64,000 nt of DNA from Bacteroidales bacterium (GTDB taxonomy: Bacteria; Bacteroidota; Bacteroidia; Bacteroidales; VadinHA17). The notes beneath the pieces were generated by a model. That model was not told where the DNA came from. It did no database searches and saw only the letters and a program-made list of their open reading frames with translations. Positions 4,598-26,497 of this stretch are shown one piece after another; position 1 is the first letter of the stretch, and every line of letters starts with the position of its first letter. A program made the position numbers and the translations under genes. Location: contig JBBQZN010000001.1 of assembly GCA_038207725.1 (NCBI GenBank), forward strand, positions 3,862-67,861, read 5' to 3'.

Positions 4598-4609
4598 AAT
4601 ATTTTTACG

Positions 4610-4631: not shown

Positions 4632-4649
4632 ATTTATATACTTCAGATT

Positions 4650-5924: not shown

Positions 5925-5962
5925 TTATGCCCCTATGCCCCCTCCAGACAATTGATACTTAA

Positions 5963-6850: not shown

Positions 6851-6895
6851 ATAATTATCTTTACCGTTCTATTTGACGCTAATTTATCTGAAAAA

Positions 6896-8182
6896 ATGAG
6901 AAAGCTATTCATATTAAGTGTACTAATTACACTAATTTTTGGGTCTTGTAAAAAAGATCCTGTTCAGCCTGACCTTACTCCTGCTATGGGAAGGGATAGT
7001 CTTTACTATATAATGAACGACTGGTATTACTGGTACGATAAAATGCCTACCGTTCAAAAGGAAGATTATGCAGATCCTTTTAAGCTTATGGATGCCATGC
7101 GCTACAAGGTACTTGACAGATGGAGCTTTGTAGCAGATTATGATGAGTTTATGGCCGAAATGGCTGGTACCTTTGTCGGACATGGCTTCAGGGTAGGACT
7201 TGATTTTGCCGGCAATGCCAGAATAGCTCAGATTTATAATGCATCACCTCTTTATGGTGAAGGTGTAAGGAGAGGATGGATAATTAAAAAGATTAATAAC
7301 ACCCTTTTGGCTCCAATACTCATCGCAGGCGATGGTGCAGCCTACTCGGCACTTATAAAACCGGCAACAGCAGGAATCATAAATCTCTTTGAATTTCAGA
7401 AGCCTGACGGAAGTCTCGAAGTTTTCTCATCGACAAAATCGACCTTTACTTTAAACACAGTAATTCTTTCAGAAGTACTTCAGTTAAAAAACGGCCGGGC
7501 TGGCCACCTTGTATTTGACCAGTTCATAACACCTTCGGCTGGCGAACTGGCAACGGCCTTTGCACTGTTCAAGGAAAATAATGTAACTGATCTGATTCTT
7601 GACCTGAGATATAATTCAGGTGGCTATCTGAATATAGCTCAGACACTTGCAAGCTATATTGCAGGGGATGGCAAAGCCGGTCAGGTCTTTGCAAAGCTTT
7701 CATATAATAATAAACGACAGGCAGCAAACTCTACTTACCTGTTCAAAACGACAGCGTCCTCATTGTCTCTTTCCAGACTGGTAGTTATAACAACCCGATC
7801 TACTGCCTCGGCAAGTGAAGCGGTAATGAACAGCCTCAAACCATTTATGAGTGTTATAAGCATTGGTGATACCACAAATGGGAAACCGACGGGGATGAAC
7901 GGCTGGGAGATAGGCAAGAAATACTATATGTGGCCGGTAACATTCAAGATGGTTAATTCGCAGAATTCAGGTGATTACTTTGAAGGCATCTCCCCTGCTA
8001 AACTTGCTGGTGACGATATTGCACATGACTTCAACGATGTAAATGAAGCATGCCTGAAAGAGGCAATCTACTATCTTGAAAATGGTTCGTTCACAGCAAA
8101 AGGGTCAGCAGAATTTGTTAGGTATCCGCAGTTTTCAGATAAGCCTGCATGGATGCAGAAACCTATGGCTCTCGAAAAATAG
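6896..8182 (+). CDS. S41-family peptidase lipoprotein
   Basis: Signal peptide plus lipobox (LIFGSC). S41-like motifs [12 protein letters not shown] and TRSTASASE. Confidence 0.7.
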
Positions 8183-8183
8183 A

Positions 8184-8765
8184 ATGCCCGATAGCCCCGT
8201 CAGATTGAAAATAATTCCGAAAGAGAGGATAATTCTGGGGATAGACCCCGGAACCAGCATGACAGGATACGGTGTAATAAAAACTGCTGGCACTGTACCT
8301 GAACTTGTTGCCATAGGCGCTATCGACCTTTCAAAAATTGATGATCATTATGTCAAACTGAAACAGATCTTCGACAGGGTTTCAGAAATAATAGATGAAT
8401 ATCATCCTGATGAACTGGCAATTGAAGCCCCCTTCTTTGGAAAAAACGTTCAGTCGATGCTTAAACTGGGGCGCGCGCAGGGAGCTGCAATAGCTGCAGC
8501 GCTTAACCGGTCAGTTCCTATTTTTGAATATGCCCCCCGTAAAATCAAGATGTCAATCACCGGTCAGGGAGCAGCCTCCAAGGAACAGGTTGCCTCAATG
8601 CTTATGCGTATTCTGAAGTTCAACCTTACCGAGATTAAACTTGATGCAACAGACGGACTTGCTGCGGCATTATGTCATTTTTACCAGACAAATAAGCCAG
8701 TCCGAGATAAGTCGTACAACAGCTGGAAGGATTTCATGAATAAAAATCCCAAAAGGGTTAAATAA
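8184..8765 (+). CDS. ruvC: Holliday junction resolvase RuvC
   Basis: [30 protein letters not shown] and [10 protein letters not shown] motifs. I chose the ATG at 8184; the 8076 start overlaps the preceding gene. Confidence 0.9.
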
Positions 8766-11023: not shown

Positions 11024-11503
11024 TTGAGAACCTGTTCAAAAATAAGATTTTTTTTAATTGCCACAACTCTGATCCTTTCAATAAGTTCATGTAACCGCAA
11101 GAATGATGTCATTCCTGATGTTATAGTTAATTTCAATCTCGACCTTAACGATCCTGAGTTTGTAAATCTCAATGCCATGGGAGGATCAGTTACTGTAAAT
11201 GCAAGTACAAATAACTGGGGCCGCTATGCCGCAGGTTACGACGGCAACGGTATCATAATTTACGCTGGAGTAAACGAATTCTATGCCTACGATAGAACCT
11301 GTCCTCACGATTATGCAGAAAACTCACTCAGCATAAAAGTCAATATTGATCCTCAATCTTCATTAACAGCAGTATGCCCTGAGTGCGGAACAACATATGC
11401 TCTTTCTGCTAATGGCACCCCGGCCAGCGGCGTGGGCAGATATCCTCTCAAAAACTACAAAGCCACCTTCGACGGCAGATTCGTATATGTAAGAAACTAC
11501 TAA
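11024..11503 (+). CDS. Lipoprotein with Rieske-like CxH...CxxC motif
   Basis: TTG start and lipobox (LSISSC). C-terminal pattern YAYDRTCPH...[10 protein letters not shown]...G.G..PLKNY resembles a Rieske fold in which the last His is replaced by Cys. Confidence 0.5.
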
Positions 11504-12967: not shown

Positions 12968-13897
12968 TCAGCCCAACAGCTCAATAACCTGTTGTTTATC
13001 AAGTTCCATCTGTGCTGATAGCTTTTCCAAATTTTCGAATTTGACCTCTCCTCGCAGTCTTTTCCTGAAAGTTATCGTCAGCTTACAGCCGTAGATATCT
13101 TTATTGAAATTCAGAATATTAACTTCAATTGTCCTCTGCCCCGGTTCTGAATTAACCGTTGGATTTGTACCTATACTCAGCATCCCCGGATGTGTGGATC
13201 CGTCAAGTTGTACCTGTACGGCGTACACACCATTCATAGGGATGAGTTTGTGCGTATCATCAGGCTCAATATTTGCAGTAGGAAATCCTATAGATCTTCC
13301 TATCTGCCGTCCTGATATCACACTACCTGACAGACTATAATAATACCCCAGCCATTTGTTAGCCTCATCAATCCTTCCGGTAAGAAGCGCCTCCCTTATT
13401 ACTGAAGAGCTGATTGCGCCCTCCTCAGTATGAAATCCCTGAACCTGCTCAACAGTGAAATGGTGTGCTTCGGCACAATTAGTAATTGTATCAAAATCTC
13501 CCTCGCCCTTTCTGCCAAAATGATGATTGAATCCTAGTATAAGATGCTTAGTCCCTATTTTATCAACAAGAATATTTTTAATGAAATCGCATGCAGGAAT
13601 TGTACTGAATTCCCTGCTGAACTCTATAAGCACAAGATGATCGATACCTGCCTTTTCCAGACGCACAATTTTTTCGTCCATTGTTGTGAGAAAGAATAGC
13701 GGTTTATCACCATTCTCCAGCACGAGGCGGGGATGAGGGGAAAAAGTGACAACTAACGACTCACCTTTTGTCTCTTTCGACTTATCTGTAAGCCTGTTAA
13801 GCAGGGTCATATGCCCCCTGTGAACTCCGTCAAAAATTCCAAGAGTTACCGAGGGTGAGCGAAGTGACAGGTTAATATATCCTTGATGTATGATCAT
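12968..13897 (-). CDS. ribF: Bifunctional riboflavin kinase / FAD synthetase
   Basis: GIFDGVHRGH (FMN adenylyltransferase) and the GFPTAN riboflavin kinase region. I prefer the ATG at 13897 over the TTG at 13927 because a -7 box lies at 13916-13923. Confidence 0.9.
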   Translation of the reverse strand: MIIHQGYINLSLRSPSVTLGIFDGVHRGHMTLLNRLTDKSKETKGESLVVTFSPHPRLVLENGDKPLFFLTTMDEKIVRLEKAGIDHLVLIEFSREFSTIPACDFIKNILVDKIGTKHLILGFNHHFGRKGEGDFDTITNCAEAHHFTVEQVQGFHTEEGAISSSVIREALLTGRIDEANKWLGYYYSLSGSVISGRQIGRSIGFPTANIEPDDTHKLIPMNGVYAVQVQLDGSTHPGMLSIGTNPTVNSEPGQRTIEVNILNFNKDIYGCKLTITFRKRLRGEVKFENLEKLSAQMELDKQQVIELLG

Positions 13898-13915
13898 AAT
13901 ATTTGTATCACGTTG

Positions 13916-13923
13916 CAAAAATA
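13916..13923 (-). promoter_or_regulatory. Candidate -7 box (TATTTTTG) for ribF
   Basis: Plus-strand CAAAAATA, 19 nt upstream of the ATG at 13897. Confidence 0.3.
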
Positions 13924-14001
13924 ACAAAGCCGGTTGAAATGAACCCTAATTATGATTTTGTTTTCGTACTTTTATAAAAAGAATCCGATTTACATCTGAG
14001 A

Positions 14002-16029
14002 ATGAAACCAGTCAGTTTTTACGCATCAGACCCCTGGCTTAATCCCTTTACATCTGTAATTGACAGCCGTATTGCCAAATGCCTGGTTAAAGAAAAGAAT
14101 CTCACAGGAAAGGGGAATCTTTCTGAATTTGCCATGGGTCACTATTATTATGGACTTCACCATAATGGCGATGCATGGATTTTCAGGGAATGGGCTCCTA
14201 ATGCTACAGACATATATCTTACCGGTACATTTTCAGGATGGAAAGAGACGCCTGAATACAGGATGAAAAGGATTAATAACAATGGTGACTGGGAACTTTC
14301 ACTCCCGTCTGATTTTCTTAAACACGGAGATCTTTTCAAACTTTTTTTACACTGGCAGGGTGGAAAAGGTGAACGCATACCATCATATGCAAACCGCGTT
14401 GTTCAGGATGATACTACCAAAATATTCAGTGCGCAGGTCTGGAAACCTGCAAAAGAGTATGAATGGAAAAGCAATTCTTTCAAAGCCTCATCGAATGCCG
14501 CTACAATATATGAAGCTCATATTGGAATGGCAACCAGCGAAGAAAAAACCGGGACCTACAGTGAATTCACAAAGAATATTCTTCCCCTGATCGTAAAGGC
14601 CGGATATAATACAATCCAGTTGATGGCCATTCAGGAACATCCGTTTTACGGTTCATTCGGATATCATGTTTCGAGCTTTTTCGCTGCCTCCTCTCGTTTT
14701 GGAACACCTGAAGAACTTAAAGAACTTGTTGATACAGCACACGCATCGGGCATCAAAGTAATCATGGATCTCGTTCATTCCCACTCTGTTAAAAATGTAA
14801 ATGAGGGACTTGGCCTTTTTGACGGATCACCGGGACAGTACTTTCATGCAAATAACCGCCGGCAACACAAGGCATGGGATTCCCTTTGCTTTGATTACGG
14901 GAAAGACAACGTTGTCCACTTTCTTCTTTCTAACTGCAGATACTGGCTAGAAGAGTACCGATTTGACGGTTACAGGTTTGATGGAATAACAAGTATGATC
15001 TACTATGACCATGGCCTTGAAAAGAATTTTACAACATACGATGAATATTTTGACGGAAATCAGGATGAAGATGCAATGATATACCTTTTCTTGGCAAATA
15101 AAATGATTCATGAATATAAGCCTGATGCCATTACTATTGCCGAAGAGATGAGCGGAATGCCAGGAATTGCAGCTGCCATTAAGCACAAAGGATTCGGATT
15201 TGATTACAGGCTTTCAATGGGTGTTCCTGACTTCTGGATAAAACTGGTTAAGGAAACATTCGACGAGAACTGGGACATGGGTAAACTTATGTATGAGCTT
15301 ACACAGCACAGGCCTGAAGAGAAGATAATATCGTACTGTGAATCTCATGATCAGGCATTGGTCGGCGACAAGACACTTATATTCAGAATGATAGAGGCTG
15401 AGATGTACTCGGGTATGGCAAAATCATTTCATAGTATTAAGGTCGACAGGGGAATCGCTCTTCATAAGATGATAAGGCTCATTACATTCAGTACTTCAGG
15501 TGGAGGATATCTGAATTTTATGGGTAATGAATTCGGACATCCTGAGTGGATTGATTTTCCCAGGGAGGGAAATAACTGGAGTTTTAAATATGCGAGAAGA
15601 CAATGGAACCTTGCTGAGGATAAAGAACTTAAATATCAGTTCCTGTCAAAATTTGACAAAAAAATGCTGAAGCTCCAAAATGACTACAGTATCCTCGAAA
15701 ACATGAATATCAGCAGGATATATGATAACAACAGTGACAAGATAATTGCCTTCATGCGTGGGGAGCTCCTATTCGTATTTAACTTCAACCCTTCTGTTTC
15801 ATTTACCGATTACGGAATTCCGGTTCAGGGAAAATTCAGAATTATTCTTGATAGCGACGACTCCCAGTTCGGAGGCTTTGACAGAGTTGAGCGTAAAACG
15901 TCATATCTCTCTGTAAAAAAAGCAGAAAGGAACATTATTAATGCTCCTTTATACCTTTATCTGTACCTGCCAGCCAGAACTGCTCTTGTTTTTAAGAAAG
16001 AGCAGCTCCGCAGAGCAACCGATATCTAG
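14002..16029 (+). CDS. glgB: 1,4-alpha-glucan branching enzyme (GH13, eukaryote-like short type)
   Basis: 675 aa with GH13 regions VIMDLVHSH, YRFDGYRFDGITSM, IAEEMSG and YCESHDQALVGDK. Confidence 0.9.
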   Translation: MKPVSFYASDPWLNPFTSVIDSRIAKCLVKEKNLTGKGNLSEFAMGHYYYGLHHNGDAWIFREWAPNATDIYLTGTFSGWKETPEYRMKRINNNGDWELSLPSDFLKHGDLFKLFLHWQGGKGERIPSYANRVVQDDTTKIFSAQVWKPAKEYEWKSNSFKASSNAATIYEAHIGMATSEEKTGTYSEFTKNILPLIVKAGYNTIQLMAIQEHPFYGSFGYHVSSFFAASSRFGTPEELKELVDTAHASGIKVIMDLVHSHSVKNVNEGLGLFDGSPGQYFHANNRRQHKAWDSLCFDYGKDNVVHFLLSNCRYWLEEYRFDGYRFDGITSMIYYDHGLEKNFTTYDEYFDGNQDEDAMIYLFLANKMIHEYKPDAITIAEEMSGMPGIAAAIKHKGFGFDYRLSMGVPDFWIKLVKETFDENWDMGKLMYELTQHRPEEKIISYCESHDQALVGDKTLIFRMIEAEMYSGMAKSFHSIKVDRGIALHKMIRLITFSTSGGGYLNFMGNEFGHPEWIDFPREGNNWSFKYARRQWNLAEDKELKYQFLSKFDKKMLKLQNDYSILENMNISRIYDNNSDKIIAFMRGELLFVFNFNPSVSFTDYGIPVQGKFRIILDSDDSQFGGFDRVERKTSYLSVKKAERNIINAPLYLYLYLPARTALVFKKEQLRRATDI

Positions 16030-19000
16030 TCAATCCACCTTAAAAGGTAGAAATCCTGTTTGTGTGGCAGATCAACATGCTTCGGATATATCCTTATGCC
16101 GTAAAAGAATGCGCCTGCTTTCTCGGGAACCAGACTTGCCCTGTAAAGACATTTCCCGCTTTTACAGCTAACCATATGAAACTCTTCACTTGCAACAAAC
16201 TTATGCTCGCCGTGTTTACCCATATGCGTTATTATAAACTCAACTCCAACATTCTCTCTTGGGATTCTCTTTACATCGAGGGCAATTTCTGCCTTATAGT
16301 CATGCCCTGACCTGTAAACATTTTCACCTGCCTTCTCAAAACTATAGTTTATAACCTCAATATTATCCCACTCCTCGCGCATAGTCTGTTTCCAGGCAGC
16401 AAGCTCTTTTGCCTTTTCAAAATTATTGTTAATCAGGTATTTATTTCGTGTATTAAGCTTTCTGTAATACTTTTCAAAATAGTCGTCGATCTGTCTCTTC
16501 ATTGTAAATTCAGGAGCAATCTTAACCATAGTATTTTTTACAAGGCTCATCCACTCAACTGGCACTCCCTGATCGTTAAACGAATAGTAGGCCGGAACTA
16601 TCTCATATTCAAGCATATTGTAAATAGTTTCCGCATCAATATCATCCTGAAGATCCTGATTTTCAAATGTCCTTTTCTTGGGTAAAGCCCAGCCTGCAAA
16701 AGCACGGTATCCTTCCACCCACCAGCCGTCAAGAACACTGAAATGAATTGTCCCGTTCATAACAGCCTTTTCACCGCTGGTACCTGAGGCTTCAAGTGGC
16801 CTGGTTGGAGTATTAAGCCAGATGTCAACACCCCTGACGAGGTATTTTGCCAGTTCAATATCGTAGTTCTCTAGGAAAATTACTTTGCCTGTAAACCGTG
16901 GCATCTGCGAGATCTCAAAGATTCTTTTAATCAGATCCTGGCCACCTCCATCATTTGGATGAGCTTTCCCTGCATAGATAAATTGTACCGGCTTATCCGG
17001 ATTATTAACAATCCTGTCAAGTCTGTCAAGATCCCTGAAAAGAAGTGACGCTCTTTTGTATGTGGCAAATCTGCGGGCAAACCCTATCGTCAGAGCTTTC
17101 TCATCAAGATGACTACTGATATTCAGCAGAGTACGGGGACTTACGTGTTTCTCAATCATATCAGACTGAAGACGCTTTCTGATATTCGAGAAAAGTTTCT
17201 TTTTAAGTCCTGTCTTAACCTCATAGATCTTTTTATCCTCAACGTTGTAAAGTCTTTCCCAGAGTCTCCTGTCGGTCTGGTCAAAATTAACATTTCCTGT
17301 GAGGCTCTTATAAACTTCCCTCCACTCAGGGGCTGTCCATGTAGGGTGATGAACTCCGTTAGTCACATGTCCGATAAACAACTCTTCTTTCAGATATCCC
17401 GGCCAGAGTTTACTAAACATCCCCCGGCTTACTTCACCATGAAGTTTACTTACTCCATTCACCTCCTGCGACATCCTTGTTGCAAGGTAACTCATATTGA
17501 ATTTCCTGTCATAATCACCTTCACATTGTCCGAGAGCCATAAGCTGTTCCCAGCTTATTGTAAGTCTGCTATGATAATGTGAGATATATTTACGGAGAAG
17601 GTCCTCATCAAAAGCATCATGTCCTGCAGGTACAGGGGTATGTGTAGTAAAGAGGGTTGATGACCTGACTACCTCAAGCGCCTGATTGAATGTAAGATGA
17701 TGATCATTATTCAGTATCCTCATTCTTTCGAGGCTAATAAATGCAGAGTGTCCCTCATTGCTGTGATATACATCGGGATGCAATCCCATGGCCTCGAGAG
17801 CTCTTATCCCCCCGATGCCCAGTATAAGTTCCTGTCTAAGTCTGTTTTCATTATCGCCGCCATACAGATAATGTGTTACAGTACGGTCTTCAGGTAAATT
17901 ATCGTCAAAATCAGTATCAAGAAGAACGAGCCTGACTTTACCTACCATAGCCTCCCATACTCTGATGCTAACAGTTCTGCCAGGCCATACAAGGCTAACT
18001 ACAAGATGATTACCTTCCGTGTCTTTTACCGGACTTATCGGAAGTCGGGAAAACTCTTCTGCATCATATATTGATAACTGTTCTCCTCTTGGGCCTAGTT
18101 TTTGTTTGAAATAACCATATCTGTATAGCAGTCCGATACCAGTGATATTCAGATTCGAATCACTTGCTTCTTTCAGATAATCTCCGGCAAGAATTCCCAA
18201 ACCTCCGGAGTATGTCTTCAGACATGGATGAATTCCAAATTCCATACTGAAATAGGCAACAGAAGGGCTACTGATATCATCGGGACGATCTTTGTATTGA
18301 GTGAAAAGGTCAAAAATTCTTTTTAATTCACCTAAAAATTCCTCATCATCCTCGAGTATCATAAGCCTCTTATAATCTATCTTTTCAAGAAGCAGTTTCG
18401 GATTATGACGCACTTCCTCCCAAAGCGATGGATCCATATGGCAAAACAACGATTCGGCTTCTGAATTCCATGACCACCATAAATTGTTTGCAAGTTCTTT
18501 GAGGGCACCCAGTTTTTCAGGAACATCACTCTGAACATAGATATCTTTCCATACCGGAACCTGGTGCGGTTTTCTTACTACAAGACCTGGTGCTTCAACA
18601 AATTTTGCAAATTCCCGGGGCTCATCTCTCCTTTCACTGCTTTTCGTCAGAGCTATTTTATACGCATAGAAATAATGATCCACGAGCGTATCCCACATTG
18701 CTATCCTTGATACTTCATGTGCTTTCTTTCGGGCTTCCTTTATATCATCATCGCTTAAACCGATAAACGAAGACATGAAAGCTCTTATCTTATCAACTAC
18801 CTCAGCCTCATTATCATCAGTTCTTTCAATAACGGAAATACCATAGCCCGGATTCTCAAAATAGGTTTTAACCCAGAGTCCGAATCCTGAAAGTGAGGTT
18901 GTAACAGTTGGAATCGAGAACATTAAACTCTCGAGAGGGGTATATCCCCATGGTTCGTAATATGACGGGAAAACCGAAAGGTCAAATCCTATCAACAGAT

Positions 19001-20249
19001 CGAAGTATGGAATATTAAAGATGCCATCATCACCATTAAGATAAGATGGAACGAAAATTATTTTAACTTTTGAATCCTGAGTATTATGGAGGTTGTTTAC
19101 TTCAAGTCGCTGGAGGACAGGGTCGGTATGGGGATAATGCAAACTGTGAGTAAGGAATCTGTCTCCACCGTTTTTTGGTCCGTCATGGTTAAGTACTTCG
19201 ATAATATCCTGACGTGGTCCCTTATGGTATGCAGGTATCAGGAAGAAAGCAACACACTCTTTTTTAATTCTACCCTCCTTCTGAAGTTCACCCAGCGAAT
19301 CTATAAAGATATCAATCCCCTTGTTTCTGAACTCATATCTGCCGCTGTTAACAATATATACACAGTCATCTGACAACGAATATCCCAGAACTGCTTCCGC
19401 AACATTTTTCAGACTGGATCTTGCATTTTTTCTTACCTCTTCGAACCGGTCAATACCGGGAACAAATGAGTCTTCAAATCCATTTGGTGTTACAATATCA
19501 ACATCCTTACCAAGAAAATGGCTGCATTCCCGTGAAGTAATATCGCTGACAGTTGTAAAGACATCAGAAACAGTTGCTGCAATCTTTTCGAGTGACTGTT
19601 TTGCTACAACATTGAACTCCCGCGCAATCTGCACCGGATTATAACTCTCCATTTTCCCATACAGCGGACGACCGTTCCCTGCAATACACCTGCCAAGTAC
19701 TGTTGCGTGACTTGTAAAAGATGTTGCGATCCATGGAGCGAACTTTTCAAGGTATAATACCCCTGATCCTGTCATCCACTCATGAAACTGTGCAATAATA
19801 TTATGGTTGCTGTGATAAAACCCAGAAAAACTTTCTATCAGTTTTCCGGCAGCGTATCCGAAAAGAGCAGGCTCAACATAATCCCACTGACCTGAAATGC
19901 TATCGAGTTTGTATGTTTCCCAGAAACCAGCAAAAATCTCATTCTGCTGCCCGAAATATGGTGTAAAATCAATAAGAATAACAATTGGTTTCCCTGAAAT
20001 ATTCCACCTGCCAGTTTTTACCCTCAGTCCTTCTGACGCTGCTCTTCCCTTCCAGTCTGCAAAGAGGGAATCGTCAGGAATAAATTCAGGATTGGTAATA
20101 TCCTCTCTCCATACATCAGGTCCGATGAGAATATAATTATCGCCTAACTGGTTAATAATTTTAAGTGCTTTAGTAGATATTACCGTATGGATTCCTCCAA
20201 CCTTATTACAAACTTCCCAACTTGTTTCAAAAATAAAATCAACCTTCAT
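16026..20249 (-). CDS. Fusion protein: GT3-type glycogen synthase (N) :: GT35 alpha-glucan phosphorylase (C)
   Basis: 1407 aa with no internal stop. The N half has FETSWEVCNKVGGI and the E-X7-E motif YEPWGYTPLE. The C half has WWSWN..A..LF (DUF3417-like), SNEGHSAF, TTHTPVPAGHD and the PLP-Lys region EASGTSGEKAVMNG. Confidence 0.9.
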   Translation of the reverse strand: MKVDFIFETSWEVCNKVGGIHTVISTKALKIINQLGDNYILIGPDVWREDITNPEFIPDDSLFADWKGRAASEGLRVKTGRWNISGKPIVILIDFTPYFGQQNEIFAGFWETYKLDSISGQWDYVEPALFGYAAGKLIESFSGFYHSNHNIIAQFHEWMTGSGVLYLEKFAPWIATSFTSHATVLGRCIAGNGRPLYGKMESYNPVQIAREFNVVAKQSLEKIAATVSDVFTTVSDITSRECSHFLGKDVDIVTPNGFEDSFVPGIDRFEEVRKNARSSLKNVAEAVLGYSLSDDCVYIVNSGRYEFRNKGIDIFIDSLGELQKEGRIKKECVAFFLIPAYHKGPRQDIIEVLNHDGPKNGGDRFLTHSLHYPHTDPVLQRLEVNNLHNTQDSKVKIIFVPSYLNGDDGIFNIPYFDLLIGFDLSVFPSYYEPWGYTPLESLMFSIPTVTTSLSGFGLWVKTYFENPGYGISVIERTDDNEAEVVDKIRAFMSSFIGLSDDDIKEARKKAHEVSRIAMWDTLVDHYFYAYKIALTKSSERRDEPREFAKFVEAPGLVVRKPHQVPVWKDIYVQSDVPEKLGALKELANNLWWSWNSEAESLFCHMDPSLWEEVRHNPKLLLEKIDYKRLMILEDDEEFLGELKRIFDLFTQYKDRPDDISSPSVAYFSMEFGIHPCLKTYSGGLGILAGDYLKEASDSNLNITGIGLLYRYGYFKQKLGPRGEQLSIYDAEEFSRLPISPVKDTEGNHLVVSLVWPGRTVSIRVWEAMVGKVRLVLLDTDFDDNLPEDRTVTHYLYGGDNENRLRQELILGIGGIRALEAMGLHPDVYHSNEGHSAFISLERMRILNNDHHLTFNQALEVVRSSTLFTTHTPVPAGHDAFDEDLLRKYISHYHSRLTISWEQLMALGQCEGDYDRKFNMSYLATRMSQEVNGVSKLHGEVSRGMFSKLWPGYLKEELFIGHVTNGVHHPTWTAPEWREVYKSLTGNVNFDQTDRRLWERLYNVEDKKIYEVKTGLKKKLFSNIRKRLQSDMIEKHVSPRTLLNISSHLDEKALTIGFARRFATYKRASLLFRDLDRLDRIVNNPDKPVQFIYAGKAHPNDGGGQDLIKRIFEISQMPRFTGKVIFLENYDIELAKYLVRGVDIWLNTPTRPLEASGTSGEKAVMNGTIHFSVLDGWWVEGYRAFAGWALPKKRTFENQDLQDDIDAETIYNMLEYEIVPAYYSFNDQGVPVEWMSLVKNTMVKIAPEFTMKRQIDDYFEKYYRKLNTRNKYLINNNFEKAKELAAWKQTMREEWDNIEVINYSFEKAGENVYRSGHDYKAEIALDVKRIPRENVGVEFIITHMGKHGEHKFVASEEFHMVSCKSGKCLYRASLVPEKAGAFFYGIRIYPKHVDLPHKQDFYLLRWID

Positions 20250-20277
20250 CTCTAAATCTTATTTATTTAAGTTTTAA

Positions 20278-21849
20278 TTACTTTTTTTTAATTACTGTTT
20301 TTTTTGCCTTAACTGCCGGTTTCTTTTTTACAGTTTTTGCAACTTTAGTTTTGTCTTTAACTGCTGCAGCCCTGACTTTTGGTTTAGCTGCTAATTTCTT
20401 CTCAGGAAGTTTTACAACTTCTGCTTTTACTTTAGCCTTAACCGTTTTTTTAGTCACTGGTGCAGTACTTTTTTCAACAGCGGCTATAACCAGGTTTTTG
20501 GTAGACTTTTTTATTTTTGAAGCAGGTTTTATCTTCGAAACCTTTTTTGTAAGCTTTTCGATCTCAAAGGCCTGACGCTCAATAAGCATGTCCTTTTCAA
20601 TAAGCTGATTACCAAGCTTGTAAATCTGATCCTGTTCAGCAGTATCTGGAAATAATTTCTTTAACCTGATCTCAAAATCGCTAAGTACGTTCATGTAATT
20701 CATAAACGCATCGTATGGGGTTTCATAAGGATTGAAATAAGCATGAACAGCTCCATCGGAAAAAAACTTGGTCGCCATATAATAAAAATGGTCGCTTGAC
20801 TGAAGGTATTCCCAATCCTTTTTTATCTGCATGTCTTCACTCTTATTAACTTTCGCGGCAAGGCTGTAAAGCTTGTCAAGTGCAGCTACCTGAAGCTCAT
20901 TCCCGAGCCAGGCAGTAATGTCGCGTTCTTCATCTGCCCATGAGATAGGGGAAGGAATGCCAATTGCGGATACCGGTTGCAATGTATCAGCTATCTCAGT
21001 CGGAGTCATAAAACGGAAAGGTGTTTTCTTAAGAATAGTTCCCGGCATATGTTCCAGGAAATCAAAGATTCCGGTCTCTTTCCAGTTGTGTTCTCCGAAT
21101 GTCTCATAGTCAAGAAAAATGTTCAGAAGTTCGCTTTTGGGAGCCAGCTTGTTTATCCACGATGCGTATTTATCAGCAGTAAGCGGCCATGAATTCCAAT
21201 CACGGTTTGAAAAGCGGAAAGCAATATCATCACTCAAAACAAAGTTCCTGAGAAGAACTTTCAATCGGGGATTTATTGAATTACAATACAGAAAATTAGG
21301 GCTCTTCCATCCAAGAACATGTTTAGCTCCTTCTGTAAGAATTGATTTAAACCCCATATCTGCTACCCATGACCCTATCTGGTCAGAATAAATGAGTTCA
21401 GTATTGCGGAATGAGCTAGCTTCAACACCAAGGTACTGCCTCAGCATGTCTCTGTGATTATTGACCTGCCTCTCAAATTCGCTTCTGCTTCTCAGTGAAA
21501 CCAGAGAATGCGAATTTGTCTCCGCAAGAAATTCCACCATTCCTGTTTCTGCAAGTTCTTTGAATGAATCAAGAACTTCAGGAGCGTATAGCCTGAACTG
21601 GTTAATTGCCAGTCCTGAAAGGGAATAGGTTACTTTGAATTTCCCTTTATGTTTATGTATCAGGTCAAGAATAATCTTATTGGCAGGCAGGTAGCATTTA
21701 TCGGCTACCTTCCGCATTATTGATTCGTTGGAGTAATCATCATAATAATAATGATCATGACCCAGATCAAAAAACCTGTAACGCTTTAGCCGGAAAGGCT
21801 GATGAACCTGAAAATAAAAACAGATTGCTTTTTTGTTCGCTGCACTCAT
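20278..21849 (-). CDS. GH57-family glycoside hydrolase with a Lys-rich C-terminal tail
   Basis: N-terminal FYFQVHQPFRLKRY and DYETFGEHNW are GH57-like. The last ~85 aa are KxxAVKAK-type low complexity. Confidence 0.8.
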   Translation of the reverse strand: MSAANKKAICFYFQVHQPFRLKRYRFFDLGHDHYYYDDYSNESIMRKVADKCYLPANKIILDLIHKHKGKFKVTYSLSGLAINQFRLYAPEVLDSFKELAETGMVEFLAETNSHSLVSLRSRSEFERQVNNHRDMLRQYLGVEASSFRNTELIYSDQIGSWVADMGFKSILTEGAKHVLGWKSPNFLYCNSINPRLKVLLRNFVLSDDIAFRFSNRDWNSWPLTADKYASWINKLAPKSELLNIFLDYETFGEHNWKETGIFDFLEHMPGTILKKTPFRFMTPTEIADTLQPVSAIGIPSPISWADEERDITAWLGNELQVAALDKLYSLAAKVNKSEDMQIKKDWEYLQSSDHFYYMATKFFSDGAVHAYFNPYETPYDAFMNYMNVLSDFEIRLKKLFPDTAEQDQIYKLGNQLIEKDMLIERQAFEIEKLTKKVSKIKPASKIKKSTKNLVIAAVEKSTAPVTKKTVKAKVKAEVVKLPEKKLAAKPKVRAAAVKDKTKVAKTVKKKPAVKAKKTVIKKK

Positions 21850-21859
21850 ATCTTAATAC

Positions 21860-23152
21860 TTAATTATTTTCAAGAACTCTGTTATAAATATCCCTTACAT
21901 GCCGGGCTGAATTATCCCATTTAAGGCGAATCACCTCTTCTTTGCCGTTTTTAATAAACATATTTGAGAGAGCGGGGTAAGTAAGGATGCCATAAATTGC
22001 ATCAGCCATGGCATCTATATCCCAGAAATCGGTTTTAACAGCATGAGTAAGAATCTCTGCCACACCTGACTGTTTGCTTATTATGACAGGAACATTTGAT
22101 GCCATTGCCTCAAGTGGAGATATTCCAAAAGGTTCTGAAACAGATGGCATTATATAAACATCACTCATTTCGAGCATTGAGAAAACATCGGCCCCCTTAA
22201 GAAAACCTGTGAAATGAAACCTGTCAGTAATTTTCAGAGCGGCAGCTCTTCTCATCATTCTCTCCATCATATCGCCTGATCCTGCCATAACAAACCTGAC
22301 ATTATCCATGACCTGCAGAACTTTATATGCAGCTTCAATAAAATACTCAGGTCCTTTCTGAAGTGTAATCCTTCCCAAAAAGGTAACAACCTTTTCGTCG
22401 AATCCCTTTCTCAAAATAAGGTTCCCGGAAATGGTTACAGGTTCAACGGCATTATAAACAGTCTCGACCTTATCAGGATTAATATTATACTTATTGATAA
22501 CAATATCGCGGGTAAGATTACTCACAGTTATTATTTTGGAAGCAGCATCCATTCCGCTTTTCTCTATTCTGTAAACATCAGGGTTTACATTTCCACCGCT
22601 TCTGTCGAAATCGGTGGCATGAACATGTATTACAAGAGGTTTTCCTGAAACCTCCATAGCAGCAATCCCTGCAGGGTAAGCAAGCCAGTCGTGGGCATGT
22701 ATTATGTCAAACTCATTTTCCTCAGCAATAACTGAAGCAACAATGGCATAATTCTGAATCTCTTCCATTAGGTCATTGTCGTACCTGCCTGAGAAGTCGA
22801 CCATTCCTTTTGTGTTTGTCTTAACAAAAAGGCTAAAACCGGCAACTTCCGATCTGATAACTTTCCAGAAGTCTTCCGGATCGGTGTAGGGTACAATTCT
22901 GGATGAAATTTCAATTTTTTCAATTGGGATCCTGTTTCCTTTAAAATAGACCTTTTTAAATGCCACAGGTGTTTTATTTGCGCCAATAAGTCTGACAACA
23001 TTCTGATCTTCATCACCCCATGCTTTAGGGACAACAAAGATAACCTCAAGATCTTCAAGAGTAGCCATCCCTTTAGTCAGGCCATAACTGGCAGTTCCCA
23101 AACCACCAGAGATATGTGGAGGGAATTCCCATCCGAACATTAACACACGCAT
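21860..23152 (-). CDS. GT4-family glycosyltransferase
   Basis: MRVLMFGWEFPPHISGGLGTA, and an E-X7-E motif in PSVSEPFGISPLEAMA. Confidence 0.85.
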   Translation of the reverse strand: MRVLMFGWEFPPHISGGLGTASYGLTKGMATLEDLEVIFVVPKAWGDEDQNVVRLIGANKTPVAFKKVYFKGNRIPIEKIEISSRIVPYTDPEDFWKVIRSEVAGFSLFVKTNTKGMVDFSGRYDNDLMEEIQNYAIVASVIAEENEFDIIHAHDWLAYPAGIAAMEVSGKPLVIHVHATDFDRSGGNVNPDVYRIEKSGMDAASKIITVSNLTRDIVINKYNINPDKVETVYNAVEPVTISGNLILRKGFDEKVVTFLGRITLQKGPEYFIEAAYKVLQVMDNVRFVMAGSGDMMERMMRRAAALKITDRFHFTGFLKGADVFSMLEMSDVYIMPSVSEPFGISPLEAMASNVPVIISKQSGVAEILTHAVKTDFWDIDAMADAIYGILTYPALSNMFIKNGKEEVIRLKWDNSARHVRDIYNRVLENN

Positions 23153-23164
23153 ATCTCTACTTTG

Positions 23165-25114
23165 TTATTGGTTAGCATATTTTGTCTCAAGCAGATTAAT
23201 AATTCTCAATACCTCTCCTACACTCCAGGCCTGCGATATTGATCCATTAGGAGCATGTGGTGGATTACCATCATGAATTTCTGACAGTGTACTTACGCCA
23301 TGCTCACTCATTACGGCTTCCAGTCCATATATTAATTTTCTTACTTTCTGTACTCCCTGCTGACCATAAACTCTTAACCAGCCTTCACAAAATGGTCCAT
23401 AAAGCCATGGCCAGACAGTTCCCTGATGGTAGGCTCTGTCTCTCTCTTCCTGCGTTCCATAATAAGTTCCCCTGTAAAACTTATTTCCCGGAGATAGTGT
23501 CCTCAAGCCCCTTACTGTGACAAGTTCCTTATCGGCTACATCGAGAACCTTTTTCATCTGCTCCTTGTCGAGCATAGAGTAGGGCAATGAAACTGCAATA
23601 AGCATATTTGGCCTGACAAAAGTGTTTTTTCCTTCATCATCATTTACATAATCAGCCAGATAGCCTCCTTTTTCTTCCCAGAAAAGTTGTATAAACGAGC
23701 TCTTTACCAATTCAGGCAGTGACTCATACTCCTTAATAAATTTCTTATCGCCAGCATCTTTTGCCATTTCCAGTGAAAAACATAATGCATTGTACCACAG
23801 AGCATTAATTTCAACTGCAAATCCTCTTCTTGGTGTAACCGGAACGCCATGAACTACGGCATCCATCCAGGTGAGGGACTTTCCGGGGGCATCAGCGTAA
23901 ATAAGACCATTTTCCCTCATGTGAATATTGAAACCTGTCCCATTTTTGAAAGAATGAAGAACTGATTTTGCAGCTTCACCATATCTCTCCCAGCCATCTT
24001 TACCTCCATGGGCAATATATTGCTGAACAGCCCAGAAGAACCAGAGGGGCGCATCAACTGAATTGAAAGCAGGATTATTATCATCACCCATATTGGGGAA
24101 TAATCCATTCTTCATTTTACCTGCCTGAGTATCGAGCACCTCTCTGTAAAGTGTCAGTCCTTGCTTCGCCAAAGCAAGCCCCGGAAGTGAGATAAAGGTG
24201 TCTCGTCCCCATGCGCCAAACCATGGATAGCCGGCAATAATAAGAGTTTTGCCTCTGCGCTTTTCAATAAATTGCTGAGCAGCATTTTTCAGGCAGCTTA
24301 TAAAACTGTTTCTCGGAATTTTACCAGTTACTGTTTTTGTAAATTTCTGCTTTAAACCTGAAGTTTTCTCCTCTTTTGTGGATGCTGAGAATACTATTAT
24401 ATCACCCTCTTTGGCTTCAATTTCGAAGAAACCGGGGGTGAAGAGGTCTTCCGAATAATCATAACCCCTCTTCTGTTCCTCAATATATTCTACGCCACGG
24501 TACCAGTCAGGCACATGAACAAATTCTGCTTTTGTTGAAAACTGCATGTGCAGATAAGGAAATCCATCATACATTTTGGATTTTATTCCGTTTTCTATAT
24601 GATCAATTTTTGTATTAGCTGAAAGATTGGCATGTGTCAGTTCATGTATATTCCTGAAAGCAAGGAACGGACGAAGTTGCAATTTCATCGGTTCTGAAGC
24701 TTCCAATACAGTAAACCTCAAAAGAAACTGCTCCTCATAATGAACAAGCATTCTTTCCTGTTTTAGAATAACACCACCTACCCTGTAAATTCTTGCGGGT
24801 ATATTGTCGGCATTATAATCATCAATATATTTATGCCCTCTGGGACTAAAAAAATCACCCTTATATTTGATTATCCCGGTATTAAAACTCTTATCATTAT
24901 TTACTACGGTTACATCGATAGTTGAAAGCAGCACATACCTTTCTCCTCCGAGTTCATCAACAGGACAAATAAGGGTTCCATGATACTTCCTGGTATTACA
25001 ACCGACAATAGTTGTGGATGAATATGACCCCGCCCTGTTGGTCCTTATCATTTCTCTGGTAAGTGAATATTCAAGATTTACTACCTGCTCTTTCTCGAAC
25101 TTAATGTAACTCAT
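23165..25114 (-). CDS. Amylo-alpha-1,6-glucosidase / glycogen debranching enzyme (GDE_C type)
   Basis: 649 aa with GYPWFGAWGRDTFISL and YHQGTVWPW motifs. Confidence 0.85.
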   Translation of the reverse strand: MSYIKFEKEQVVNLEYSLTREMIRTNRAGSYSSTTIVGCNTRKYHGTLICPVDELGGERYVLLSTIDVTVVNNDKSFNTGIIKYKGDFFSPRGHKYIDDYNADNIPARIYRVGGVILKQERMLVHYEEQFLLRFTVLEASEPMKLQLRPFLAFRNIHELTHANLSANTKIDHIENGIKSKMYDGFPYLHMQFSTKAEFVHVPDWYRGVEYIEEQKRGYDYSEDLFTPGFFEIEAKEGDIIVFSASTKEEKTSGLKQKFTKTVTGKIPRNSFISCLKNAAQQFIEKRRGKTLIIAGYPWFGAWGRDTFISLPGLALAKQGLTLYREVLDTQAGKMKNGLFPNMGDDNNPAFNSVDAPLWFFWAVQQYIAHGGKDGWERYGEAAKSVLHSFKNGTGFNIHMRENGLIYADAPGKSLTWMDAVVHGVPVTPRRGFAVEINALWYNALCFSLEMAKDAGDKKFIKEYESLPELVKSSFIQLFWEEKGGYLADYVNDDEGKNTFVRPNMLIAVSLPYSMLDKEQMKKVLDVADKELVTVRGLRTLSPGNKFYRGTYYGTQEERDRAYHQGTVWPWLYGPFCEGWLRVYGQQGVQKVRKLIYGLEAVMSEHGVSTLSEIHDGNPPHAPNGSISQAWSVGEVLRIINLLETKYANQ

Positions 25115-25246
25115 GTGTTTACAATTTGACTTTTAAAAAAAATGTCTACGTAAGGTAATAAAAATATTTGATCTGACCAAAACAGTATGCATCGGGCAAA
25201 GAAATCAATAAAATTTTTGAAAATTAGTGCCGGAATAAAAAAAGAA

Positions 25247-25254
25247 TAACTTTG
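25247..25254 (+). promoter_or_regulatory. Candidate -7 box (TAACTTTG) for the thioredoxin-like lipoprotein pair
   Basis: 44 nt upstream of the ATG at 25298. Confidence 0.35.
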
Positions 25255-25297
25255 CATTTCAATATTTTAAAATAATTACAAACTAACATCTTACTTA

Positions 25298-26464
25298 ATG
25301 AACAAAAGGATTTTAATCATCATAGTTGCAGCTCTTTTAATTGCAGGATGTAAAAACAACAGCGTAAGAATTTCAGGAAACTTAATAAACACAAATGGCG
25401 GAGGTTATATTTTTCTTGATGAACTGAGAACAGAGAACCTCTTAACCGTTGATTCAATTAAAGTCGGAGATGACGGATCTTTCAGTTTTAAAAGAGAAAT
25501 AGATCAGCCATCATTCTACCTTTTAAAGATCAGCGAAAACAACTTTCTTACTTTGCTGATGGAACCGGGTCAGAAAATAACTCTCAATGCGTTTTATGAT
25601 TCGCTTAACTATCCCGTTGAAGTTACCGGATCGAAGGGAACTGAACTCATGGCTGAGTATAACAGAAGCCTCAGGAAAACAATAAATAAACTTACTGCAC
25701 TCAACAGTATCTACATGGCAAACGTCGACAGCCCCGAGTTGCCCAAAGTTATTGAAGGGCTTGACAGTATGGCACAAGGATATCTGAGTGAAATAAACCT
25801 GTATACCAAAAAATATATTGATGAAAACCTGACATCATTGGTCAGTCTTGTGGCCCTCTATCAGCAGGTCGCTCCAAGTGTTTATGTTCTTAATCCGGCA
25901 AAGGATCTTAAATATTTTGTAAAAGTCGACTCTTCACTTTCAATTAATTACCCTGAATATGAGCCTGTTAAATCTCTGCATAGCCAGGTACTTGAAATTA
26001 CAGCTACCATGAAGAGCGAGTCAGGAGAAACTGAATCTGCCAGTGAAATGAAAGAAGCTCCGGAAATTGCACTTCCGTCACCAGCAGGTGATACAATAAG
26101 ATTGTCATCAACAAGAGGCTCAATTGTTTTACTTGATTTCTGGGCAACATGGTGCGCTCCCTGCCGGATGGAAAATCCAAATCTTGTGAAGGCATATAAT
26201 ACATACAAGCGAAAAGGATTTCAGATTTATCAGGTTTCACTTGATAAAACAAAAGAGGCCTGGATGAAAGGTATCAAGGACGATAAGCTTGAGAACTGGA
26301 TTCATGTAAGTGATGTTCAATACTGGAACTCTGTTGTAGTGCCTCTTTACAAAATAGAATCAATCCCCTCAAACTTACTTCTTGACAAAGACGGCAGGAT
26401 AATAGCAACCAATCTAAGGGGGGAACAGCTTCAGAAAAAACTTGAAGAGATCTTTAACAAATAA
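25298..26464 (+). CDS. TlpA-like thiol-disulfide oxidoreductase lipoprotein (DUF4369-like N domain plus thioredoxin fold)
   Basis: Lipobox LIAGC and active site FWATWCAPCR. Confidence 0.8.
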   Translation: MNKRILIIIVAALLIAGCKNNSVRISGNLINTNGGGYIFLDELRTENLLTVDSIKVGDDGSFSFKREIDQPSFYLLKISENNFLTLLMEPGQKITLNAFYDSLNYPVEVTGSKGTELMAEYNRSLRKTINKLTALNSIYMANVDSPELPKVIEGLDSMAQGYLSEINLYTKKYIDENLTSLVSLVALYQQVAPSVYVLNPAKDLKYFVKVDSSLSINYPEYEPVKSLHSQVLEITATMKSESGETESASEMKEAPEIALPSPAGDTIRLSSTRGSIVLLDFWATWCAPCRMENPNLVKAYNTYKRKGFQIYQVSLDKTKEAWMKGIKDDKLENWIHVSDVQYWNSVVVPLYKIESIPSNLLLDKDGRIIATNLRGEQLQKKLEEIFNK

Positions 26465-26497
26465 CTGCTTAATTCAGGAAACCGTAATCCTATTTTA

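What the first reader, a model, noticed from the sequence alone, without database searches (positions are those of the whole stretch)
16026..20249. Single 1407-aa polypeptide fusing a glycogen synthase (GT3-like) to an alpha-glucan phosphorylase (GT35)
Seen: one uninterrupted ORF. Residues 1 to ~535 carry FETSWEVCNKVGGI and the E-X7-E motif YEPWGYTPLE. A ~30-aa linker lies around nt 18554-18644. Residues ~575-1300 carry WWSWN, SNEGHSAF, TTHTPVPAGHD and the PLP-lysine region EASGTSGEKAVMNG. A ~100-aa C-terminal domain follows. Both halves look catalytically intact. Established: GT3 synthases elongate glycogen, using UDP-glucose in eukaryotes, and GT35 enzymes phosphorolyse it, so these are opposing reactions. 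Inference: fusing the two implies reciprocal regulation or co-localisation on the granule, or that one half acts as a glucan-binding scaffold. Similar long ORFs may already exist unannotated in Bacteroidota databases; I cannot check.
Basis: partly seen in the sequence, partly recalled or inferred. Interest (0 to 1): 0.6.

Follow-up and report, generated by a model that had tools for sequence, protein, structure and literature searches.

The report
Fused glycogen synthase–phosphorylase gene, already catalogued
One 1407-residue protein in a Bacteroidales (Rikenellaceae-like) glycogen operon joins an intact glycogen synthase to an intact glycogen phosphorylase, but this fusion is widespread and already has its own database entry (KEGG K16153), so it is real, untested biochemically, and not new.

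Summary
Window 16026-20249 (-) is one uninterrupted 1407-codon ORF. Residues 1-540 are a GT3 glycogen synthase, residues 541-563 a variable linker, and residues 564-1407 a clade-2 GT35 alpha-glucan phosphorylase. All quoted motifs are present. Catalytic residues of both halves match those of solved homologues (yeast and human glycogen synthase; Segatella copri phosphorylase ScGP, PDB 9L6I).

The fusion is not an assembly artefact. More than 100 protein clusters at 81-94% identity are about 1407 aa (1391-1409), and 38 species-level genomes carry the same single ORF. Both halves are under purifying selection.

It is not novel. JGI already names these proteins 'glycogen phosphorylase/synthase', and KEGG has K16153 for the architecture. 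NCBI calls them only 'alpha-glucan family phosphorylase'.

Added here:
- The gene is the last of a conserved GH133-GT4-GH57 glycogen operon.
- The synthase half lacks the eukaryotic glucose-6-phosphate and phosphorylation control elements.
- Gut Bacteroidaceae, Prevotellaceae and Muribaculaceae carry the same two modules as adjacent separate genes, broken exactly at the linker. These split forms make one clade nested among fused forms.

I found no biochemical study of the fused enzyme.

The parts
16026..20249 (-). Complete CDS (1407 codons plus stop) of the fused glycogen synthase / alpha-glucan phosphorylase
   Evidence: The identical protein is already held in the public collection (NCBI source, contig of 119,949 bp).
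18630..20249 (-). Residues 1-540: GT3 glycogen synthase module (GT-B fold family)
   Evidence: Pfam PF05693, 328.9 bits. phmmer against human GYS1 E=1.3e-79 and yeast Gsy2p E=4.8e-74. Gsy2p residues E169, H193, R199, R320, K326, Y492, E509 and E517 correspond to E157, H181, R187, R304, K310, Y415, E432 and E440.
18930..18959 (-). E-X7-E motif YEPWGYTPLE (E432...E440)
   Evidence: E432 is kept in 25 of 26 and E440 in 26 of 26 diverse fused homologues.
18561..18629 (-). Residues 541-563: inter-module linker (SERRDEPREFAKFVEAPGLVVRK...)
   Evidence: No match to either family. The sequence is not conserved, while the length is roughly constant across 26 fused homologues. In species with split genes, the synthase stop codon and the phosphorylase start codon fall exactly here.
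18219..18524 (-). Residues 576-677: N-terminal alpha-helical domain of the phosphorylase (Pfam DUF3417)
   Evidence: PF11897, 112.4 bits. It aligns to the N-terminal region of ScGP.
16458..18260 (-). Residues 664-1264: catalytic core of the alpha-glucan family phosphorylase (GT35, TIGR02094)
   Evidence: TIGR02094, 826.9 bits against a cut-off of 191.7. ScGP (PDB 9L6I) E=3.5e-280. ScGP residues E278, H316, R507, R508, Y512 and K513 correspond to E832, H870, R1059, R1060, Y1064 and K1065.
16752..16793 (-). EASGTSGEKAVMNG: pyridoxal-phosphate lysine K1161 (equivalent to ScGP K609)
   Evidence: K1161 is invariant in 26 of 26 fused homologues. K609 carries PLP in ScGP (PMC12912991).
16029..16379 (-). 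Residues about 1291-1407: C-terminal beta-sheet domain typical of clade-2 phosphorylases
   Evidence: Aligns to ScGP up to residue 851 of 852. The domain is described in PMC12912991.
20278..21849 (-). GH57 family protein, immediately upstream in the same operon (28-nt gap)
   Evidence: PF03065, 250 bits. Found upstream of the fused gene in 29 of 38 fused loci.
21860..23152 (-). GT4 glycosyltransferase (best NCBIfam hit glgA_Coryne, below its cut-off), same operon
   Evidence: Conserved next to the fused gene in 24 of 38 fused loci.
23165..25114 (-). GH133 amylo-alpha-1,6-glucosidase (archaeal-type debranching enzyme), first gene of the operon
   Evidence: GDE_C 359 bits and GDE_N 228 bits. TIGR01561, 347 bits, just below its cut-off of 364. 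Conserved in 24 of 38 fused loci.
14002..16029 (+). GH13/CBM48 branching enzyme GlgB, convergent; its stop codon overlaps the stop of the fused gene in the palindrome CTAG (16026-16029)
   Evidence: The same tail-to-tail arrangement occurs in L001 and L025.

Best explanation
This is a member of the known bifunctional 'glycogen phosphorylase/synthase' family (KEGG K16153). It is encoded as the last gene of a glycogen operon (GH133 debranching enzyme, GT4, GH57, then synthase-phosphorylase) in a Rikenellaceae-like Bacteroidales genome.

Shown: one polypeptide carries two modules. The N-terminal module is a GT3 glycogen synthase with the full catalytic set. The C-terminal module is a PLP-dependent clade-2 alpha-glucan phosphorylase, closely related to the characterised Segatella copri enzyme. 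A variable linker of about 23 residues joins them.

Inferred:
- The synthase head extends alpha-1,4 chains from a nucleotide sugar. UDP-glucose is the likely donor, as in Prevotella bryantii extracts.
- The phosphorylase releases glucose-1-phosphate from the same non-reducing ends.
- The fusion fixes a 1:1 stoichiometry. It tethers the synthase to a phosphorylase that, by analogy with ScGP, forms a ring that grips glycogen particles. Both activities therefore sit on the granule.
- The synthase lacks the eukaryotic glucose-6-phosphate and phosphorylation switch. Net direction would then be set by substrate supply (UDP-glucose against phosphate and glucose-1-phosphate) and by effectors of the phosphorylase such as AMP.
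For: Architecture and families.

Catalytic residues against solved structures. The roles of the ScGP residues come from PMC12912991.

Conservation of both catalytic sets: 21 of 26 fused homologues at 31-52% identity keep all checked residues.

Purifying selection on both halves: pN 0.10-0.15 against pS about 0.8 when compared with three related genomes.

Recurrence:
- 120 of the 120 best clusters are full length, with the same Pfam set.
- 56 of the best 150 representatives at 50% identity carry the junction in one protein.
- 38 of 80 species-level loci have a single ORF.

Existing names: JGI names and K16153.

Functional linkage: the fused gene follows GDE-GT4-GH57 in 24-29 of 38 fused loci. 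In other Bacteroidales the same two modules are adjacent genes in the same order.

UDP-glucose route in a Bacteroidota species that lacks glgC: PMC7935935 and PMC4432691.

Loss of eukaryotic control elements: Gsy2p H500 corresponds to D423, which is invariant in the fused family. The arginine cluster R580/R581/R583/R592 corresponds to D, D, I and E.
Against: No enzyme assay of any fused member was found in the searchable literature. Both activities, the sugar donor, the oligomeric state and the benefit of fusion are therefore inferences.

AMP inhibits rather than activates ScGP on glycogen, so simple 'energy charge' logic for directionality is uncertain.

The distal AMP-site arginine of ScGP (R583) is a lysine here (K1135).

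A few family members (P0182, P0153, P0184) have lost catalytic residues, so intactness is not universal in the family.

My structure prediction failed (pLDDT 48), so nothing can be said about contacts between the two modules.
Confidence: 0.85

Rival explanations
1. The phosphorylase half works mainly in the synthetic or priming direction. It would hold or extend malto-oligosaccharide primers from glucose-1-phosphate for a GT3 synthase that, like its eukaryotic relatives, cannot start chains itself and has no glycogenin here.
For: ScGP catalyses the reverse (synthetic) reaction in vitro and binds glycogen particles. Eukaryotic GT3 synthases need a glycogenin-made primer (PMC11046441). No glycogenin-like (GT8) gene was seen in the window. 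The synthase is always N-terminal to the phosphorylase, and the two stay adjacent even when split.
Against: The kcat of ScGP in the synthetic direction is much lower than that of known phosphorylases. Cellular phosphate to glucose-1-phosphate ratios normally favour phosphorolysis (established biochemistry). The operon's GT4 enzyme is an alternative candidate for priming. There is no direct evidence.
Confidence: 0.1
2. One half is a catalytically silent glucan-binding or scaffolding module, as in the chlamydial GlgA-GlgB fusion where the branching domain is inactive.
For: There is precedent for an inactive partner in a glycogen-enzyme fusion (PMC7935935). Some K16153 family members do carry substitutions at catalytic positions: P0182 in both halves, P0153 and P0184 in the synthase.
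Against: The window protein keeps every catalytic residue checked in both halves. So do 21 of 26 diverse homologues. Non-synonymous divergence is equally low in both halves.
Confidence: 0.04
3. The long ORF is an assembly or sequencing artefact that joins two adjacent genes, as in Bacteroides and Prevotella, where the genes are separate.
For: Split, adjacent synthase and phosphorylase genes exist in 25 of 80 related loci. In several of them the two genes are in the same frame, separated only by stop codons in the linker.
Against: The closest relatives all have the uninterrupted 1407-codon frame in independent assemblies: L001, L025 and L077 at 78-83% identity, and more than 100 clusters of about 1407 aa (1391-1409). 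The linker is translated in frame and shows pN below pS.
Confidence: 0.01

Closest known systems
KEGG K16153 'glycogen phosphorylase/synthase [EC 2.4.1.1 2.4.1.11]' (JGI product names 'glycogen phosphorylase/synthase' and 'phosphorylase/glycogen(starch) synthase')
   Same: Same two-module architecture, length (about 1400 aa) and order (synthase N-terminal, phosphorylase C-terminal). The window protein's own 90% cluster contains a JGI member with that name.
   Different: Nothing architectural. NCBI names the same proteins only 'alpha-glucan family phosphorylase', which hides the synthase half.
Segatella copri glycogen phosphorylase ScGP (PDB 9L6I; PMC12912991), a clade-2 GT35 enzyme
   Same: Residues 564-1406 align end to end (935 bits, E=3.5e-280). 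[quoted passage not shown]
   Different: ScGP is a stand-alone 852-aa protein. Here its N-terminal loop is replaced by a linker to a synthase. The distal AMP-site residue R583 is K1135. Whether the pentamer and the AMP-induced decamer form with five synthase heads attached is unknown.
Eukaryotic GT3 glycogen synthases (human GYS1 PDB 8CVX/7Q0B; yeast Gsy2p PDB 3NAZ)
   Same: Same family (E about 1e-74 to 1e-79). Same catalytic and nucleotide-phosphate residues and the same E-X7-E motif.
   Different: The glucose-6-phosphate site histidine is aspartate (D423). Four of the six regulatory arginines are lost. There are no phosphorylatable N- or C-terminal tails. About 50 residues are missing between query residues 341 and 366 compared with GYS1 residues 371-444. 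From memory, that region holds the tetramerisation helices of the eukaryotic enzymes. No bacterial GT3 structure appeared in the PDB search.
Adjacent but separate GT3 synthase and clade-2 phosphorylase genes of Bacteroides, Phocaeicola, Prevotella, Parabacteroides and Muribaculaceae
   Same: Same two modules, same order, 42-50% identity. The gene boundary lies exactly where the linker is.
   Different: A stop codon and a new start split the protein. These pairs are not next to GDE-GT4-GH57 (0 of 25). They form one clade nested among fused forms in a neighbour-joining tree.
Other fused alpha-glucan enzymes: chlamydial GlgA-GlgB and TreS-Mak (PMC7935935)
   Same: Consecutive or related steps of glycogen metabolism joined in one polypeptide.
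   Different: Those fuse steps that run in the same direction. In GlgA-GlgB the second domain is inactive. Here a synthetic and a degradative enzyme are joined, and both look intact.

Membership tests
GT3 glycogen synthase (Pfam PF05693) | Profile match above the curated threshold | tested here: met
   328.9 bits against a cut-off of 27; two stretches covering residues 8-341 and about 366-538.
GT3 glycogen synthase (Pfam PF05693) | E-X7-E motif with the catalytic glutamates (Gsy2p E509, E517) | tested here: met
   E432 and E440 in YEPWGYTPLE. Conserved in 25 and 26 of 26 homologues.
GT3 glycogen synthase (Pfam PF05693) | N-domain glutamate and nucleotide-phosphate ligands (Gsy2p E169, R320, K326; residue roles recalled from the Gsy2p literature) | tested here: met
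   E157, R304 and K310. Conserved in 23, 25 and 26 of 26 homologues.
GT3 glycogen synthase (Pfam PF05693) | UDP-glucose as glucosyl donor | not testable with these tools
   Indirect only. The uracil-stacking tyrosine (Gsy2p Y492, role from memory) is Y415. Prevotella bryantii makes glycogen from UDP-glucose (PMC7935935).
Eukaryote-type regulated glycogen synthase | Glucose-6-phosphate site and regulatory arginine cluster (Gsy2p H500, R580, R581, R583, R587, R589, R592), plus phosphorylated tails | tested here: not met
   H500 corresponds to D423 (invariant D in the fused family). The arginines correspond to D500, D501, I503, R507, K509 and E512. The C-terminal tail is replaced by the linker and phosphorylase.
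GT35 alpha-glucan family phosphorylase (NCBIfam TIGR02094) | Profile match above the curated threshold | tested here: met
   826.9 bits against a cut-off of 191.7; residues 664-1264 cover the whole 600-position model.
GT35 alpha-glucan family phosphorylase (NCBIfam TIGR02094) | PLP-binding lysine and phosphate/substrate residues (ScGP K609, H316, R507, R508, K513) | tested here: met
   K1161, H870, R1059, R1060 and K1065. Conserved in 23-26 of 26 homologues.
Clade-2 glycogen phosphorylase (ScGP type) | Extra C-terminal beta-sheet domain and DUF3417 helical N-domain | tested here: met
   The alignment runs to ScGP residue 851 of 852. DUF3417 scores 112 bits.
Clade-2 glycogen phosphorylase (ScGP type) | [quoted passage not shown] | not testable with these tools
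   R583 corresponds to K1135. Among fused homologues the position is R in 14, K in 9 and another residue in 3 of 26. The oligomeric state was not predicted.
Thermococcales maltodextrin phosphorylase equivalog (NF041129) | Score above the equivalog cut-off | tested here: not met
   723.7 bits against a cut-off of 1500. Related, but not that equivalog.
KEGG K16153 glycogen phosphorylase/synthase | A GT3 synthase and a GT35 phosphorylase in one polypeptide | tested here: met
   Single ORF. Cluster mates are named accordingly by JGI. The KO name is quoted in PMC8307300.

The most novel reading that the evidence does not exclude
The fused form may be the ancestral state in Bacteroidota and is shared with some Planctomycetota. 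The well-studied stand-alone phosphorylase of gut Prevotella and Bacteroides would then be a product of one later fission.

In the fused enzyme, five synthase heads would ride on a pentameric phosphorylase ring clamped to a glycogen particle. That would make a self-contained turnover machine. Its net direction would be switched by ring stacking (AMP) and by UDP-glucose supply, which could underlie the glycogen cycling and energy spilling seen in related anaerobes.
Probability: 0.15. Interest if true: 0.55.

Novelty: already known. Interest (0 to 1): 0.22.

Why it matters
As a discovery it matters little. The architecture is catalogued (K16153) and occurs in thousands of Bacteroidota sequences.

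It has some value as a pointer. No fused member, and no bacterial GT3 synthase, appears among solved structures or in the literature I could search. The phosphorylase half now has a close structural reference, ScGP (2026). A fusion of opposing enzymes, with natural split variants in sister lineages, offers a ready comparison for asking how bacteria without GlgC/GlgA control glycogen synthesis against breakdown, and whether glycogen cycling is built into the enzyme.

There is also an annotation issue. NCBI product names omit the synthase half, so pathway reconstructions can wrongly score these genomes as lacking a glycogen synthase.

Tried and rejected
- AlphaFold2 on residues 1-700, using the only admissible alignment (27 sequences at 76-93% identity), gave mean pLDDT 48 and pTM 0.37. 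I discarded the model and ran no fold search. The full protein exceeds the 1200-residue limit.
- The look-up of encoding contigs found no record for the exact protein, although listing of cluster members shows the sequence is in the collection. The source record name was therefore not recovered. Taxonomy rests on the nearest genomes, Rikenellaceae MAGs at 78-83% identity.
- Five literature searches for a characterised fused enzyme found none. Two other searches failed on syntax. Lou et al. 1997 (PMC168755) is not held.
- The promoter and terminator scan of 13800-25400 was uninformative. Terminator-like sites were no more frequent than in shuffles, and the sigma-70 model does not suit Bacteroidota.
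- The assembly-artefact explanation was rejected.
- The idea of a eukaryote-like allosteric switch on the synthase was rejected, because the control residues are absent.
- No UDP-glucose or ADP-glucose pyrophosphorylase gene lies in the window, so the sugar donor cannot be inferred from context.


Full report
**Observation.** Window 16026-20249 on the minus strand is one open reading frame of 1407 codons with an ATG start and a single terminal stop. Pfam finds Glycogen_syn (PF05693, 328.9 bits; residues 8-341 plus a second stretch), DUF3417 (residues 576-677) and Phosphorylase (PF00343; residues 829-1179). NCBIfam finds the alpha-glucan family phosphorylase model TIGR02094 over its whole length (residues 664-1264; 826.9 bits against a cut-off of 191.7).

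**Are both halves intact?** Against solved structures, residues 5-538 align to human GYS1 (E=1.3e-79), C. elegans glycogen synthase and yeast Gsy2p.
- By counting in those alignments, Gsy2p E169, H193, R199, R320, K326, Y492, E509 and E517 correspond to E157, H181, R187, R304, K310, Y415, E432 and E440. The roles of these residues are recalled from the Gsy2p literature.
- The eukaryotic control apparatus is missing. The glucose-6-phosphate ligand H500 is D423. Regulatory arginines R580, R581, R583 and R592 are D, D, I and E. About 50 residues are absent between query residues 341 and 366, compared with GYS1 residues 371-444. The C-terminal tail is replaced by the linker.
- Residues 564-1406 align end to end with the Segatella copri phosphorylase ScGP (PDB 9L6I; 935 bits, E=3.5e-280).
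- ScGP K609 (PLP), H316, R507, R508, K513, Y512 and E278, whose roles are described in PMC12912991, correspond to K1161, H870, R1059, R1060, K1065, Y1064 and E832.
- The distal AMP-site residue R583 is K1135.

**Is the fusion real and recurrent?**
- The word-indexed search returned 6681 significant relatives. The best 120 clusters (81-94% identity) are about 1407 aa (1391-1409) and carry the same Pfam set. JGI names many of them 'glycogen phosphorylase/synthase' or 'phosphorylase/glycogen(starch) synthase', whereas NCBI calls them 'alpha-glucan family phosphorylase [Bacteroidales bacterium]'.
- The window protein itself is in the collection, and a member of its 90% cluster bears the JGI name.
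- An exhaustive search with residues 1-700 against representatives clustered at 50% identity gave 5853 hits. Of the best 150, 56 carry the synthase C-domain followed by the phosphorylase N-domain in one protein (29 of these are at least 1300 aa). Another 86 are synthase-only proteins of about 568 aa.
- In an alignment of 26 fused proteins at 31-52% identity to the window protein, the catalytic residues of both halves are kept in 23-26 sequences each. The linker varies in sequence but not much in length.
- Twenty-one of the 26 keep every checked residue. P0182 is degenerate in both halves, and P0153 and P0184 in the synthase.
- Against three related genomes, non-synonymous divergence is 0.10-0.15 in both halves while synonymous sites are saturated.
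- An assembly artefact is therefore excluded for practical purposes.

**Taxonomic spread, and fused against split.** This sample is not unbiased.
- 38 loci have a single fused ORF. These include Rikenellaceae (nearest at 83%), Alistipes, some Muribaculaceae, Lentimicrobiaceae, Flavobacteriales, three Planctomycetota MAGs and one bin labelled Desulfovibrionaceae.
- 25 loci have the synthase gene immediately followed by a separate phosphorylase gene. These include Prevotella bivia DSM 20514, Bacteroides faecis, Phocaeicola vulgatus, Parabacteroides, Tannerellaceae and most Muribaculaceae.
- 17 loci show the phosphorylase without a synthase within the sequence held. Two or three of these are cut by contig ends.
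- In the split species, the synthase stop and the phosphorylase start lie exactly where the linker is. In several cases the two genes are in the same frame with only stop codons between them.
- In a neighbour-joining tree of the phosphorylase halves (no support values), all split pairs fall in one clade nested among fused forms, with Planctomycetota and Flavobacteriales fused forms outside. This suggests an old fusion and a single later fission, but it needs a proper phylogeny.
- Some bin labels (Staphylococcus, Lachnospiraceae) are probably mis-binned contigs.

**Genomic context.** The fused gene is the last of four tightly spaced minus-strand genes: GH133 amylo-alpha-1,6-glucosidase (23165-25114), a GT4 glycosyltransferase (21860-23152), a GH57 protein (20278-21849), and then the fused gene. 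A GH13/CBM48 branching enzyme (14002-16029) converges on it, and the two stop codons share the palindrome CTAG. GDE-GT4-GH57 precedes the fused gene in 24-29 of 38 fused loci, including one Planctomycetota locus, and in none of the 25 split loci. No sugar-nucleotide pyrophosphorylase gene is in the window.

**What is known.** KEGG has a dedicated orthologue, K16153 'glycogen phosphorylase/synthase [EC 2.4.1.1 2.4.1.11]', quoted in PMC8307300 and used in metagenome studies.
- Reviews note that Bacteroidetes carry GT3 rather than GT5 synthases, possibly acquired by horizontal transfer (PMC11046441).
- Prevotella bryantii lacks glgC and makes glycogen from UDP-glucose (PMC7935935; PMC4432691).
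- ScGP, a stand-alone relative of the C-terminal half, forms a pentamer that wraps glycogen particles, and AMP-induced decamer formation inhibits it (PMC12912991). That paper does not mention the fused relatives.
- I found no paper that characterises a fused enzyme, and no bacterial GT3 or fused chain in the PDB copy.

**Mechanism.**
- Shown: two intact catalytic modules on one chain, in a glycogen operon, under selection.
- Inferred: the synthase extends, and the phosphorylase shortens, the same non-reducing chain ends. Fusion enforces 1:1 expression and places the synthase on a phosphorylase assembly that binds the granule. The Rosetta-stone relation to adjacent split genes suggests the two proteins also cooperate when separate.
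- Because the synthase lacks the eukaryotic switch, net flux is probably set by UDP-glucose supply, by the phosphate to glucose-1-phosphate ratio and by effectors of the phosphorylase. Simultaneous activity would amount to the glycogen cycling described for rumen anaerobes.
- Rivals: a priming or synthetic role for the phosphorylase half (about 0.1), a silent scaffold half (about 0.04), and an artefact (about 0.01).

**Failed or uninformative steps.** The structure prediction of residues 1-700 was of low confidence (pLDDT 48) and was not used. The exact-sequence contig look-up found nothing. The promoter and terminator scan was not above chance.

**Verdict.** Novelty: already known. Interest is low to modest. 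What remains open is the biochemistry and the reason for fusing opposing enzymes, for which the natural fused and split pairs and the new ScGP structure give a ready experimental frame.

Noticed in passing
window 33369-38016 (-): Two proteins with a glycine-cleavage H-protein (lipoyl-carrier-like) domain flank an NrfD-like membrane subunit and a 4Fe-4S (Fer4_11) subunit. One is 236 aa. The other is 596 aa, and its first 410 residues match nothing. This is an unusual pairing of H-protein domains with an NrfD/FeS quinone-interacting module.
   Followed up: no
window 21860-23152 (-): The operon's GT4 glycosyltransferase scores best against the Corynebacterium-type 'glycogen synthase' model TIGR02149 (135 bits, below the cut-off of 302). 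It also has a Glyco_transf_5 starch-synthase N-domain hit. It is co-conserved with the fused gene in 24 of 38 loci. It could be a second glucan-forming or priming enzyme. A review flags the role of such GT4 genes as unresolved.
   Followed up: partly
loci L040, L045, L048, L073 (about positions 1000-8550): In these Bacteroidales genomes (Prolixibacteraceae and Mariniphaga among them), GDE-GT4-GH57 is followed directly by the phosphorylase with no synthase module. This is a third state besides fused and split-adjacent.
   Followed up: partly
proteins P0182, P0153, P0184: Some full-length fused homologues have substitutions at catalytic positions. P0182 has them in both halves (for example E157N, E432Q and 8 of 14 phosphorylase sites). 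P0153 and P0184 have them in the synthase only. These are possible pseudo-enzyme or neofunctionalised members of the family.
   Followed up: partly
window 16026-16029: The stop codons of the convergent branching-enzyme gene (+) and the fused gene (-) overlap in the palindrome CTAG. The same tail-to-tail overlap is kept in related Rikenellaceae loci L001 and L025. A terminator-like hairpin for the minus strand lies inside the end of glgB (15950-15926), but such sites are not above chance.
   Followed up: partly
window 25298-27655 (+): Tandem paralogues, each with DUF4369 plus a thioredoxin-like/AhpC-TSA domain, sit divergent from the glycogen operon.
   Followed up: no
window 45335-47729 (-): Two adjacent proteins (312 and 478 aa) whose only recognisable feature is a GldL N-terminal domain, as found in the gliding / type IX secretion motor.
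   Followed up: no
window 28409-29524 (-) and 30256-33284 (-): A DUF6272 protein lies near a sigma-54-dependent response regulator and histidine kinase pair, with a peptidase-M54 ORF (29643-30170) in between.
   Followed up: no
window 531-1397 (-) and 11024-11503 (+): ORFs of 288 and 159 aa with no Pfam match at E<=1e-5. Whether they are real genes was not examined.
   Followed up: no
loci L018, L071, L075, L079: Bacteroidota-like glycogen loci sit in bins labelled Lachnospiraceae, Staphylococcus, Desulfovibrionaceae and Deltaproteobacteria. These are probably mis-binned contigs in public MAGs, so the taxonomic spread should be read with care.
   Followed up: no
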